Part shown: in pieces, positions 9,797 to 12,700 of the stretch
How the letters are laid out: the number at the start of each line of letters is the position of its first letter
Position numbering within the stretch: position 1 is the stretch's first letter
Assembly: GCF_056746865.1 (NCBI RefSeq)
Contig: NZ_CM163382.1
Reading direction: 5' to 3' (one strand)
Length of the DNA stretch: 64,000 nucleotides
Position numbers: made by a program

Positions 9797-12700
9797 TTAT
9801 ACATATCACTCTAAAATGTTTTTTCAATGTTACCTAAAGCGCGATTCTTTGCTAATATGTTCGATAACGAACATTTATGAGCTTTAACGAAAGTGAATGA
9901 GGGCAGCATGGAAACCAAAGATCTGATTGTGATAGGTGGCGGCATCAATGGTGCTGGTATCGCGGCAGACGCCGCTGGACGCGGTTTATCCGTGCTGATG
10001 CTGGAGGCGCAGGATCTCGCTTGCGCGACCTCCTCCGCCAGTTCAAAACTCATTCACGGTGGCCTACGCTACCTTGAGCACTATGAATTCCGCCTGGTCA
10101 GCGAGGCGCTGGCTGAACGTGAAGTGCTGCTGAAAATGGCCCCGCATATCGCCTTCCCGATGCGTTTTCGCCTGCCGCATCGTCCGCATCTGCGCCCGGC
10201 GTGGATGATTCGCATTGGTCTGTTTATGTACGATCATCTGGGTAAACGCACCAGCCTGCCGGGATCAACCGGTTTGCGTTTTGGCGCAAATTCAGTGTTA
10301 AAACCGGAAATTAAGCGCGGATTCGAATATTCCGACTGTTGGGTAGACGACGCCCGTCTGGTACTCGCCAACGCCCAGATGGTGGTGCGTAAAGGCGGAG
10401 AAGTGCTTACTCGTACTCGTGCTACTTCTGCTCGCCGCGAAAACGGCCTGTGGATTGTGGAAGCGGAAGATATCGATACCGGCAAAAAATATAGCTGGCA
10501 AGCGCGCGGCCTGGTTAACGCCACCGGCCCGTGGGTAAAGCAGTTCTTCGACGACGGGATGCATCTGCCTTCGCCTTATGGCATTCGCCTGATCAAAGGC
10601 AGCCATATTGTGGTGCCACGCGTGCATACCCAGAAGCAAGCCTACATTCTGCAAAACGAAGATAAACGTATTGTGTTCGTGATCCCGTGGATGGACGAGT
10701 TTTCCATCATCGGCACCACCGATGTGGAATACAAAGGCGATCCGAAAGCGGTGAAGATTGAAGAGAGTGAAATCAATTACCTGCTGAAAGTGTATAACGT
10801 GCACTTTAAAAAACAGCTTAGCCGTGACGATATCGTCTGGACCTATTCCGGTGTGCGTCCGCTGTGTGATGATGAGTCCGACTCGCCGCAGGCTATTACC
10901 CGTGATTACACTCTTGATATCCATGATGAAAACGGCAAAGCACCGCTGCTGTCGGTATTCGGCGGTAAGCTGACCACCTACCGCAAACTGGCTGAGCACG
11001 CTCTGGAAAAACTGACGCCGTATTATCAGGGTATTGGCCCGGCGTGGACGAAAGAGAGCGTGCTGCCGGGAGGTGCCATTGAAGGCGACCGCGACGATTA
11101 CGCCGCTCGCCTGCGCCGCCGTTACCCGTTCCTGACTGAATCGCTGGCACGTCACTACGCGCGCACTTACGGCAGCAACAGCGAACTGCTGCTCGGCAAT
11201 GCGGGAGCGATAAGCGACCTCGGGGAAGATTTCGGTCATGAGTTCTACGAAGCGGAACTGAAATATCTGGTCGACCACGAATGGGTCCGCCGCGCCGACG
11301 ATGCCCTGTGGCGTCGCACAAAACAAGGCATGTGGCTGAATGCGGATCAACAATCTCGTGTGAGTCAGTGGCTGGTGGAGTATACGCAGCAGAAGTTGTC
11401 GCTGGCGTCGTAAATTAACGTAAGGTGGCCAGGTCAGATTTCAATCTGACCTGAGACTGATGATAAACAAAAAAACTGCCTGATGCGCTACGCTTATCAG
11501 GCCTACGTGGTTTATGCAATATATTGAATTTGCATGATTTTGTAGACCAATAAGACGTTCACGTCGCATCCGGCATGGACAAAGCGCATATACAACCGAT
11601 AACCAAAGTTGTAATTCCAGAAGTGAAATACGCCTGATCATGAGCGGGATAGAGAACAGTATCTCCCCAGAAAACTCAGCGTAATAATACAAGCAGCCAG
11701 CGCAACCACCGTCGGCCATATCAAGAACGGTACAATAATAAAGCCGAGAAATACCACACCTAGCAGCAAAACACCGTGAATTTGTTCATCGCGCTAATTC
11801 CTTTCCCTCGAGGGTTATTTCATTGTGGGATACATCGGCACATAACCCATATTTTCCATCAAACTTTACCCTACCGATGGCTAAAAACGGGCTAATCCGA
11901 TTCTGCACTGACTCACACATCACTGGTATTCCACCCGCAAAACAGCCAGGGCATTATAACGACCCGCAGCAGGGCGTCGCCCTGTGGTACTTACAGGGAG
12001 AGACAGAAAAGTCACATCTGCCGTCTGAGCTGACTCAGCCCGGTTTTCAACTAACTTAAATGGCACACCAACATGCGCAGCAAGAGCGTTCAAGTCTACG
12101 GATTCCTGTTGGCTATCCATAATCATAATGCCAACGTCGGGGTTATCCTCCGCCTGAATAATGCTTTGCCGACCATTAACATCTCTCGTTGATGAAATAT
12201 TGCCATCAAAAACCAGCGTCATTACGGCATCAATATCTTTGTTCGTACAGTTTATCGGAATAGTGGTTGCCACTGGAGAAACGCCCGTGGGCTTCACTCC
12301 AGCACCAGCCCGACTTAATTCGCTGGCCCAGACATCCGGCATATTAACGGTAAAACTAGTTCCCTCATTAATTGTGCAACCTTGTGGAACTTCAATATTT
12401 AAGTTGCCAATATAAGCATTAAATACTGGAATTGGTCCGTGCTCTGTTGGAAACTGGCTGACATACAAAGAAACCAGCAATACGTTATTTATTGATATAT
12501 CGGATATTATTTTTTTATCAAGTCTGATTTTTATATAACCTTCTGTTCCTGAGGCCCAACTTGATGGTTTACTTCTGTCTGCTGGATAATTGGTGCTATA
12601 GTTGTCAAAAGGTACTGCCTTATCTGTCATTGTGCCATTTTTATTATAGAGCTTTACATGTGTCGAGACAGATATTTCATGAGTCAAAGGAATAAATATA

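What the first reader, a model, noticed from the sequence alone, without database searches (positions are those of the whole stretch)
11441..11919. Left junction of the fimbrial island: REP/BIME cluster and a doubtful 92-codon ORF
Just after glpD there are two canonical REP units (11478-11506, 11554-11577) around an internal 20-mer, then ~340 bp of unassigned sequence before the adhesin gene stop. The 92-codon minus-strand ORF (11441-11719) runs straight through the REP palindromes, which argues against it being a real gene. REP clusters are frequent insertion/recombination boundaries and plausibly mark the edge of the accessory segment.
Basis: partly seen in the sequence, partly recalled or inferred. 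Interest (0 to 1): 0.3.

Follow-up and report, generated by a model that had tools for sequence, protein, structure and literature searches.

The report
BIME repeat plus decayed gene relics
The stretch after glpD is an ordinary E. coli BIME-1 repeat followed by broken leftovers of an older three-gene operon; the fimbrial (auf-like) segment begins about 300 bp beyond the repeat, and the 92-codon ORF is an artefact of that decay.

Summary
The described features are there. A z1 REP lies at 11478-11506, a y REP at about 11543-11577, and a conserved linker sits between them. Together they form a typical BIME-1, and two more copies occur in the window. The 342 bp between the repeat and the adhesin stop is not anonymous sequence. 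Aligned to the intact O157:H7 locus (glpD, BIME, 200-aa membrane protein, 330-aa and 502-aa PstS-like proteins, glgP), it resolves into three collinear relics. These are codons ~12-68 of the 200-aa gene, the first 12 codons plus ribosome-binding site of the 330-aa gene, and the last ~24 codons of the 502-aa gene. They are separated by a 435-bp deletion and a ~994-bp deletion and carry two 1-bp frameshifts. The fimbrial segment is a divergent auf operon. Its left edge is at 11888/11889, inside the 502-aa gene relic, at the same site as in Nissle 1917, which has no BIME. The 92-codon ORF is a chimera of out-of-frame sequence, 28 authentic codons and read-through into the BIME. Its frame is closed in intact haplotypes and its tail varies among carriers. 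About 230 of 5,426 complete E. coli genomes share this junction. This is ordinary locus decay and of low interest.

The parts
9908..11413 (+). glpD (glycerol-3-phosphate dehydrogenase), the conserved left flank
   Evidence: ORF; PGAP annotation of the identical 118UI sequence (window coordinate = L001 coordinate - 621)
11430..11453 (.). Perfect 11-bp hairpin just after the glpD stop (CAGGTCAGATT tc AATCTGACCTG). No U-run follows on either strand
   Evidence: I1; -16.1 kcal/mol, z -2.6. Also present in K-12, O157 and KMi012; replaced by a different hairpin in the beta haplotype
11465..11473 (.). A-run (a T-run on the minus strand) directly downstream of the z1 REP hairpin for minus-strand transcripts, giving a terminator-like arrangement. 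Its length varies among carriers
   Evidence: sequence; fold (REP hairpin -12.9 kcal/mol followed by UUUUUUUGUUU); indels in VCSW5 and GMF065
11478..11506 (+). z1-type REP, left arm of the BIME-1
   Evidence: 0 mismatches to the consensus, none expected by chance
11507..11542 (.). BIME-1 L linker with palindromic core TGCAATATATTGAATTTGCA. ATTCAATATATTG on the minus strand is one mismatch from the IHF consensus WATCAANNNNTTR (consensus taken from my own knowledge). The Rfam ES036 hit spans 11499-11541 (-)
   Evidence: PMC3333891 for the definition of BIME-1 and the IHF site in L
11543..11577 (-). y-type REP, right arm of the BIME-1, partly degenerate in its 3' arm
   Evidence: 11550-11574, 2 mismatches; alignment; weak fold
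11581..11587 (.). Junction of deletion 1. 435 bp of the O157 reference are missing: the C-terminal two thirds of the 200-aa gene plus the spacer. AAAGCGC is present at both parental ends
11581..11753 (-). Relic A: codons ~12-68 of the 200-aa membrane-protein gene (called Ybl142 in O157). Identity is 90-92% nt to O157/KMi012 and 76-77% to the Nissle and strain 4/4 alleles. A 1-bp deletion near 11665/11666 shifts the frame
   Evidence: PGAP pseudogene at 11567-11781
11753..11754 (.). Junction of deletion 2. About 994 bp of the reference are missing: the N-terminus of the 200-aa gene and nearly all of the 330-aa PstS-like gene. The join fused the two genes in frame
11754..11789 (-). Relic B: first 12 codons of the 330-aa PstS-like lipoprotein gene (MNKFT.VLLLG; ATG at 11789-11787). 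A 1-bp deletion in codon 5 (~11775/11776) leaves a 9-codon ORF
   Evidence: O157 330-aa protein starts MNKFTGVLLLGTALLAGC
11790..11814 (-). Retained ribosome-binding site (GGAAAGGAA) and spacer between the 502-aa and 330-aa genes
   Evidence: alignment to O157 L005 5193-5217
11815..11888 (-). Relic C: last ~24 codons of the 502-aa PstS-like gene (stop codon at 11815-11817), now containing an in-frame stop
   Evidence: 81.6% to O157 over the 114 bp at 11759-11871; 83-87% to strain 4/4 and Nissle over 32-42 bp
11888..11889 (.). True left junction of the fimbrial (auf-like) segment, after CTAAAAAC. Nissle 1917 has the same truncation point in the 502-aa gene
   Evidence: three-way comparison; (B2-type and a third-allele auf homology begins at 11890/11891)
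11889..11919 (-). 31-bp 3' flank of the adhesin gene, homologous to the auf 3' flank in Nissle
11920..13050 (-). AufG-like fimbrial adhesin, last gene of a seven-gene chaperone-usher operon (11920-19114). Right junction of the segment is at 19588/19589, 9 bp past the glgP stop
   Evidence: PF00419; 64-82% aa identity, collinear with Nissle auf
11441..11719 (-). The 92-codon ORF, an artefact. Residues 1-18 are an out-of-frame reading of relic A, residues 19-46 are the authentic frame (EILFSIPLMIRRISLLELQLWLSVVYAL), and residues 47-92 read across deletion 1 into the BIME
11638..11769 (-). 43-codon TTG ORF: the authentic-frame remainder of the fused relic, ended by the second frameshift
   Evidence: not in the protein collection

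Best explanation
Window 11414-11919 has two parts. The first is the normal 3' flank of glpD in one family of E. coli haplotypes: a hairpin followed by a single BIME-1 (z1 REP, L linker with an IHF-type site, y REP). The second is a non-coding graveyard of an older three-gene operon that read toward glpD on the minus strand. That operon encoded a 502-aa PstS-like protein, a 330-aa PstS-like lipoprotein and a 200-aa membrane protein.

The inferred sequence of events is as follows. An auf-type chaperone-usher operon replaced the promoter and all but the last ~24 codons of the 502-aa gene. Its left junction is 11888/11889 and its right junction is 9 bp past the glgP stop. A ~994-bp deletion then fused codon 12 of the 330-aa gene to codon ~13 of the 200-aa gene. 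A 435-bp deletion between two AAAGCGC copies removed the rest of the 200-aa gene up to a few bases from the y REP. Two 1-bp deletions broke the remaining frame.

The 92-codon ORF is a by-product of these events and encodes nothing. Shown here: the homologies, junctions, frameshifts and distribution. Inferred: the order of events, that the relics are inert, and that the BIME acts as usual (RNA 3'-end protection or a barrier between the convergent glpD and auf transcripts, plus IHF binding).
For: REPs and linker match the consensus, with no chance expectation, and the same architecture occurs at two other sites in the window. The element occurs a median of 18 times per E. coli genome. The definition of BIME-1 is in PMC3333891.

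The relics are collinear with the intact O157:H7 and KMi012 loci. The remnant's start, MNKFT.VLLLG, equals the start of the O157 330-aa protein, MNKFTGVLLLG.

The same truncation point of the 502-aa gene is found next to the auf operon of the BIME-less Nissle 1917. The island is collinear with Nissle auf at 64-82% aa identity. The auf operon is reported in the glpD..glgP region (PMC12928451). GC falls from 0.52-0.57 in the flanks to 0.37-0.44 inside the island.

PGAP independently calls 11567-11781 a frameshifted, truncated pseudogene. The frame of the 92-codon ORF closes after 38-42 codons in intact haplotypes. Its C-terminus differs in length and sequence (92, 94 and 96 aa) among carriers because of indels in the A-run. 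It has no Pfam family.

Of 232 genomes with this auf allele, 226-231 have the same junction, including VCSW5, whose adhesin is only 93% identical.
Against: Relic B/C (11759-11871) is only ~82% identical to the O157/KMi012 alleles, whereas relic A is 90-92% identical. The 11753/11754 joint may therefore be a recombination between two diverged haplotypes rather than a simple deletion. No genome with this auf allele and intact downstream genes was found among the 5,426 E. coli genomes, and only two auf-negative relatives turned up in the species-representative set. The order of events is therefore untested. No expression data were available, so I cannot exclude transcription or translation of the short relic ORFs. 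The exact 92-aa sequence is deposited as a hypothetical protein (AAV31774.1/Q5UDR9), but that is only an annotation.
Confidence: 0.9

Rival explanations
1. One reading: the REP/BIME cluster is the recombination or insertion boundary of the fimbrial island.
For: Homology with K-12 ends at 11587/11588, 10-11 bp beyond the y REP. Deletion 1 ends 4-10 bp from the REP. REPs are known targets for some insertion sequences (PMC3333891).
Against: About 300 bp of relics from the pre-existing operon lie between the BIME and the fimbrial genes, in the original order and orientation. The island junction at 11888/11889 is shared with a haplotype that has no BIME. The K-12 break results from two independent deletions. 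No direct repeats of 8 bp or more, no tRNA and no integrase flank the segment.
Confidence: 0.04
2. The 92-codon ORF, or the 43-codon authentic-frame ORF, is a real small-protein gene that arose from the decay.
For: The 92-codon ORF is open in most carriers and is deposited as a hypothetical protein. The 43-codon ORF is hydrophobic and sits behind a retained ribosome-binding site.
Against: The frame is not conserved. It is closed in intact haplotypes, and its tail is altered by A-run indels in VCSW5 and GMF065. Half of the ORF is BIME sequence. It matches no family. The retained ATG gives only 9 codons. The 43-aa sequence is not in the 15-billion-protein collection.
Confidence: 0.03
3. The BIME linker at 11499-11541 (-) is a discrete small RNA of the Rfam ES036 family, with its own function (for example, antisense to the glpD 3' end).
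For: The Rfam hit is above the gathering score (43.6 vs 37.6 bits). A sigma-70-like match on the minus strand at 11546-11518 overlaps it.
Against: The matched 43 nt are simply the conserved BIME-1 linker plus the REP tail, a repeat present many times per genome. The promoter count is no higher than in shuffles (1 found against 1.4 expected). The linker fold is not better than shuffled sequence (z -0.45). A literature search for ES036 returned nothing relevant.
Confidence: 0.1

Closest known systems
BIME-1 (bacterial interspersed mosaic element type 1; also called RIP/RIB elements) of E. coli
   Same: A z1 and a y REP in inverted orientation with the CTAC/GTAG ends facing a conserved ~40-bp L linker that carries an IHF-type site. 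It is a single copy, extragenic, and lies between convergent genes (PMC3333891).
   Different: The 3' arm of the y REP is degenerate in this lineage (one base lost, two substitutions). A deletion ends 4-10 bp from it.
yzgL pseudogene of E. coli K-12 (glpD-glgP interval)
   Same: It is another decay product of the same ancestral operon at the same locus, made by a microhomology-flanked deletion.
   Different: yzgL is the N-terminal remnant of the 502-aa PstS-like gene joined to the last ~20 codons of the 200-aa gene. The window keeps the opposite ends: the C-terminus of the 502-aa gene, the start of the 330-aa gene and the middle of the 200-aa gene. The two are independent events.
auf fimbrial operon (aufABCDEFG) of uropathogenic E. 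coli CFT073, Nissle 1917 and BEN2908, in the glpD..glgP region
   Same: Same chromosomal site, the same seven-gene order (major subunit, chaperone, usher, two minor subunits, chaperone, adhesin) and the same left truncation point in the 502-aa gene.
   Different: Only 64-82% aa identity (about 74-78% nt). The B2 form keeps three intact downstream genes (236, 255 and 201 aa) and has no BIME. The window form, found in strain 042 and an ST69 strain, has only relics and a BIME.
O157:H7 locus Ybl142 plus two PstS-family proteins (the intact alpha haplotype)
   Same: It is the source of all three relics, with identical order and orientation and the same BIME after glpD.
   Different: It is intact and auf-negative. 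The function of this operon is unknown: PBP_like_2 domains only, and no family for the 200-aa protein.

Membership tests
BIME-1 | One z1 REP and one y REP | tested here: met
   z1 at 11478-11506 with 0 mismatches; y at 11550-11574 with 2 mismatches over the 25-nt core
BIME-1 | REPs in inverted orientation separated by the long conserved L linker | tested here: met
   z1 on +, y on -, 43 bp between the matched cores. The linker aligns with two other z1-L-y elements in the window
BIME-1 | Single copy at the locus, not a tandem array, and extragenic | tested here: met
   Only one pair lies between the glpD stop and the relics
BIME-1 | L linker binds IHF | not testable with these tools
   ATTCAATATATTG (minus strand, 11517-11529) is one mismatch from WATCAANNNNTTR. 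This is by inspection only. [quoted passage not shown]
Rfam RF02751 ES036 sRNA | Covariance-model score at or above the gathering threshold | tested here: met
   43.6 bits vs 37.6, full-length match 1-43. The match is to repeat sequence, so it says nothing about expression at this copy
Protein-coding gene (the 92-codon ORF) | Reading frame conserved across genomes that carry homologous DNA | tested here: not met
   Frame closed after 38-42 codons in O157, KMi012 and Nissle. The C-terminal tail is changed by indels in VCSW5 (96 aa) and GMF065 (94 aa)
Protein-coding gene (the 92-codon ORF) | Similarity to a known protein family over its length | tested here: not met
   No Pfam hit. Only residues 19-46 match the Ybl142 family in the authentic frame
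Pseudogene of the 200-aa Ybl142 family | Nucleotide and protein homology to an intact gene, with disabling lesions | tested here: met
   173 bp at 90-92% identity to the intact O157 and KMi012 genes. The N-terminus and C-terminal two thirds are deleted and there is a 1-bp frameshift. PGAP makes the same call
auf chaperone-usher operon | Seven genes in the order A-B-C-D-E-F-G at glpD..glgP | tested here: met
   Collinear with the Nissle operon, 64-82% aa identity gene by gene. Location as in PMC12928451
Classical integrative genomic island | tRNA or other attachment site, integrase, flanking direct repeats | tested here: not met
   No tRNA in 1-30000. No shared k-mer of 8 bp or more at the two junctions. 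No integrase among the annotated genes

The most novel reading that the evidence does not exclude
The glpD-glgP interval may be an old polymorphism in which deeply diverged haplotype families coexist within E. coli. Their alleles of the 200-aa gene are 75-77% identical at the nucleotide level, and the two auf alleles are 74-78% identical. Both auf alleles share one truncation point in the 502-aa gene. This would mean a single ancient auf insertion, followed by long persistence or by import from unsampled Escherichia lineages. The genes downstream of the membrane-anchored PstS-like protein would then behave as a swappable cassette (330, 255, 236 or 187 aa). The relics in this window would be the only surviving trace of a third, otherwise unsampled allele of that operon.
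Probability: 0.3. Interest if true: 0.35.

Novelty: already known. Interest (0 to 1): 0.12.

Why it matters
The value is mainly for annotation. The REP cluster should be labelled BIME-1. The 92-codon ORF, deposited in databases as a hypothetical protein, should be dropped. The 342 bp should be labelled as three relics of the Ybl142/PstS-like operon. The boundary of the auf-like segment should be placed at 11888/11889. The case also shows a trap in breakpoint mapping: comparison with a single reference (K-12) puts the boundary at the REP, whereas an intact haplotype shows that apparent boundary to be the sum of two unrelated deletions. Nothing here changes what is known about REPs, fimbriae or genome islands.

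Tried and rejected
1. An intrinsic-terminator scan of 11300-12000 found none.

2. A search for an intact precursor of this haplotype (this auf allele with complete 330- and 200-aa genes) found none. All 226-231 carriers share the decayed junction, even the 93%-diverged VCSW5.

3. A degenerate DNA pattern for the AufG C-terminus had 0 hits in the species-representative genome set.

4. A scan of the same set with the Ybl142 alignment found two loci only, Escherichia sp. E1V33 and MOD1-EC7003, both auf-negative. There is therefore no outgroup evidence on the order of events.

5. The literature search for ES036 returned only unrelated grant numbers.

6. Direct or inverted repeats at the two island junctions and a nearby tRNA were sought and not found.

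7. dN/dS on the ORF was not attempted. The carriers differ by only 2-3 substitutions across 11589-11919, so there is no statistical power. I used frame conservation instead.

8. One search was run with 'best' instead of 'spread' rows by mistake. It still supplied strain names (042, an ST69 strain, MS 198-1) and the count of 557 genomes with a match at 60-80% identity (the band in which B2-type auf matches fall).

Full report
**Where the window comes from.** Window 11380-11960 is 100% identical to E. coli strain 118UI and to many other complete genomes, including strain 042 and an ST69 strain. The locus is the interval between the convergent genes glpD (+, stop at 11411-11413) and glgP (-, stop at 19598-19600).

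**Checking the observation.**
- The z1 REP consensus matches 11478-11506 (+) exactly. The y REP consensus matches 11550-11574 (-) with two mismatches. Shuffled sequence gave no matches in either case.
- The full y unit spans about 11543-11577. Its 3' arm is degenerate and no longer folds better than shuffled sequence.
- Between the REPs lies a ~40-bp linker with the palindromic core TGCAATATATTGAATTTGCA.
- Two other sites in the window (48586-48684 and 54431-54529) have the same z1-linker-y layout and align at 88% mean column identity.
- This layout is the published definition of BIME-1: z1 plus y, inverted, a long conserved L linker that often carries an IHF site, and a single copy (PMC3333891).
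- The BIME portion of the query matches a median of 18 places per E. coli genome.
- Rfam's ES036 model scores 43.6 bits (gathering score 37.6) on 11499-11541 (-). That match is simply this linker.
- The 92-codon ORF at 11441-11719 (-) exists and does cross the BIME.

**What the 'unassigned' 342 bp is.** Other complete genomes show several states of the glpD-glgP interval.
- O157:H7 and KMi012 carry glpD, the BIME, a 200-aa membrane protein (called Ybl142 in UniProt), a 330-aa PstS-family lipoprotein, a 502-aa PstS-family protein and glgP. The last three genes are transcribed toward glpD.
- K-12 has a 2.8-kb internal deletion of that operon, which leaves the yzgL pseudogene.
- Nissle 1917 and strain 4/4 carry a diverged allele family with no BIME.

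Base-by-base alignment of the window to O157 gives the following map.

| Window coordinates | Content | Note |
|---|---|---|
| 11414-11587 | Shared hairpin and BIME | |
| 11581-11587 | Junction of deletion 1 | 435 bp missing; AAAGCGC at both parental ends |
| 11581-11753 | Codons ~12-68 of the 200-aa gene | 90-92% nt identity; 1-bp deletion near 11665 |
| 11753/11754 | Junction of deletion 2 | ~994 bp missing |
| 11754-11789 | First 12 codons of the 330-aa gene | 1-bp deletion in codon 5 |
| 11790-11814 | Ribosome-binding site and spacer of the 330-aa gene | |
| 11815-11888 | Last ~24 codons of the 502-aa gene | Stop codon at 11815-11817 |

The remnant's start, MNKFT.VLLLG, matches the lipoprotein signal peptide MNKFTGVLLLG of the O157 330-aa protein. 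This identifies deletion 2 as an in-frame fusion of two neighbouring genes. NCBI's PGAP annotation pipeline independently marks 11567-11781 as a frameshifted, C-terminally truncated pseudogene in four carrier genomes.

**Where the fimbrial segment really starts.**
- Homology to the 502-aa gene runs through CTAAAAAC (11881-11888).
- From 11889 on, the sequence matches the 3' flank of the last fimbrial gene of Nissle 1917. Database hits to B2-type alleles and to a third allele start at 11890/11891.
- In Nissle the relic of the 502-aa gene ends at the same TTAAAAA, although that haplotype has no BIME and keeps three intact downstream genes.
- The right junction is at 19588/19589, 9 bp past the glgP stop.
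- The 7.7-kb segment has GC 0.37-0.44, against 0.52-0.57 in the flanks.
- It has no tRNA, no integrase and no flanking repeats of 8 bp or more.
- Its seven genes are collinear with the Nissle operon at 64-82% aa identity. That operon is the auf operon described in the glpD..glgP region of extraintestinal pathogenic strains (PMC12928451). The island is therefore a divergent auf allele.

The REP cluster is not its edge. The apparent K-12 breakpoint at 11587/11588 arises from deletion 1 in this lineage combined with the separate K-12 deletion. Against the BIME-less haplotype, divergence starts at the glpD stop codon itself.

**The 92-codon ORF.** Its three parts have different origins.
- Residues 19-46 (EILFSIPLMIRRISLLELQLWLSVVYAL) are the authentic frame of the 200-aa gene (O157: EILFSIPLMHRRISLLQLQLWLSAEYAL).
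- Residues 1-18 are an out-of-frame reading upstream of the 11665 frameshift.
- Residues 47-92 read across deletion 1 into the y REP, the linker, the z1 REP and the A-run.

In intact haplotypes the same register closes after 38-42 codons. Among carriers of the decayed junction, indels in the A-run (11465-11473) give tails of different length and sequence: 92, 94 and 96 aa. The ORF has no Pfam match. The exact sequence is in public databases as a hypothetical protein (AAV31774.1/Q5UDR9), which is an annotation artefact. The 43-codon TTG ORF (11638-11769) is the authentic-frame remainder, and the retained ATG at 11789 yields only nine codons.

**Distribution among 5,426 complete E. coli genomes.**

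| Haplotype | Genomes |
|---|---|
| BIME-less left junction | 3,014 |
| K-12 deletion junction | 1,261 |
| Relic-A region at 80-95% identity (O157/KMi012-type allele of the 200-aa gene) | about 900 |
| This auf allele | 232, of which 226-231 have this exact junction |

VCSW5, whose adhesin is only 93% identical, has the same two deletions and both frameshifts. The decay is therefore old and fixed within this haplotype.

**How it works.**
- Shown: the sequence relationships, junctions and lesions.
- Inferred: the BIME plays its usual part as a structured element between convergent transcription units. The z1 REP hairpin (-12.9 kcal/mol) is followed by U7 on the minus-strand RNA, which is terminator-like for transcripts leaving the auf operon. 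The linker offers an IHF-type site. The relics are inert.
- Inferred order of events: the auf replacement of most of the 502-aa gene came first, since its junction is shared with the B2 allele. The two deletions and two frameshifts followed.
- One caveat: relics B and C are only ~82% identical to the O157/KMi012 alleles, whereas relic A is 90-92% identical. The 11753/11754 joint could therefore be a recombination between diverged haplotypes. No intact precursor was found in E. coli or in species-representative genomes.

**Verdict.** This is an ordinary BIME-1 followed by pseudogene debris at a known variable site. Interest is low.

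Noticed in passing
window 36387-36451 (-): RyhB small RNA, full-length Rfam match at 83.1 bits.
   Followed up: no
window 48586-48684 and 54431-54529: Two further BIME-1 elements (z1 REP, L linker, y REP) with the same geometry as the one after glpD. Neither reached the ES036 gathering score.
   Followed up: partly
L005 3598-6726 (O157), L006 3592-6578 (strain 4/4), L004 768-2856 (Nissle), L013 6959-10534 (Escherichia sp. MOD1-EC7003): The operon whose relics lie in the window has a 502-509-aa protein carrying a C-terminal PstS-like domain, a conserved 200-aa membrane protein with no family, and between them a variable gene set (330-aa PstS-like; 255 aa; 236 aa; 187 aa plus 236 aa). 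Its function is unknown and the middle genes look like a swappable cassette.
   Followed up: partly
L002 4303-4524 (K-12 yzgL): K-12 yzgL is the N-terminal remnant of the 502-aa PstS-like gene joined to the last ~20 codons of the 200-aa gene by an independent 2.8-kb deletion with short microhomology. 1,261 genomes share that junction.
   Followed up: yes
L007 10110-13101 (Nissle 1917, NZ_CP007799.1): This Nissle assembly shows two partial glgP pseudogenes separated by a fimbrial-gene fragment. The window's aufA upstream region matches twice (L007 9547-10262 and 11598-12309). This is either a local duplication or an assembly error.
   Followed up: no
L008 3157-4818 (VCSW5) vs window 11414-13071: The divergence is a mosaic: the adhesin is 93% identical and the BIME region about 94%, but the relic stretch 11589-11919 is about 99% identical. 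This suggests recombination or fast adhesin evolution.
   Followed up: partly
window 19115-19594: A 480-bp very AT-rich region (GC 0.25) lies upstream of the aufA-like major subunit gene and is presumably its regulatory region. Within it, a hairpin at about 19541-19580 is followed by a T-run on the minus strand just after the glgP stop, which is terminator-like.
   Followed up: no
L009 4001-5079 (strain Rb-50) and NZ_CP148423.1: A third auf adhesin allele, 78-79% identical to the window's, sits in a Nissle-like context (236, 255 and 201-aa genes intact). At least three deep auf alleles therefore exist.
   Followed up: partly
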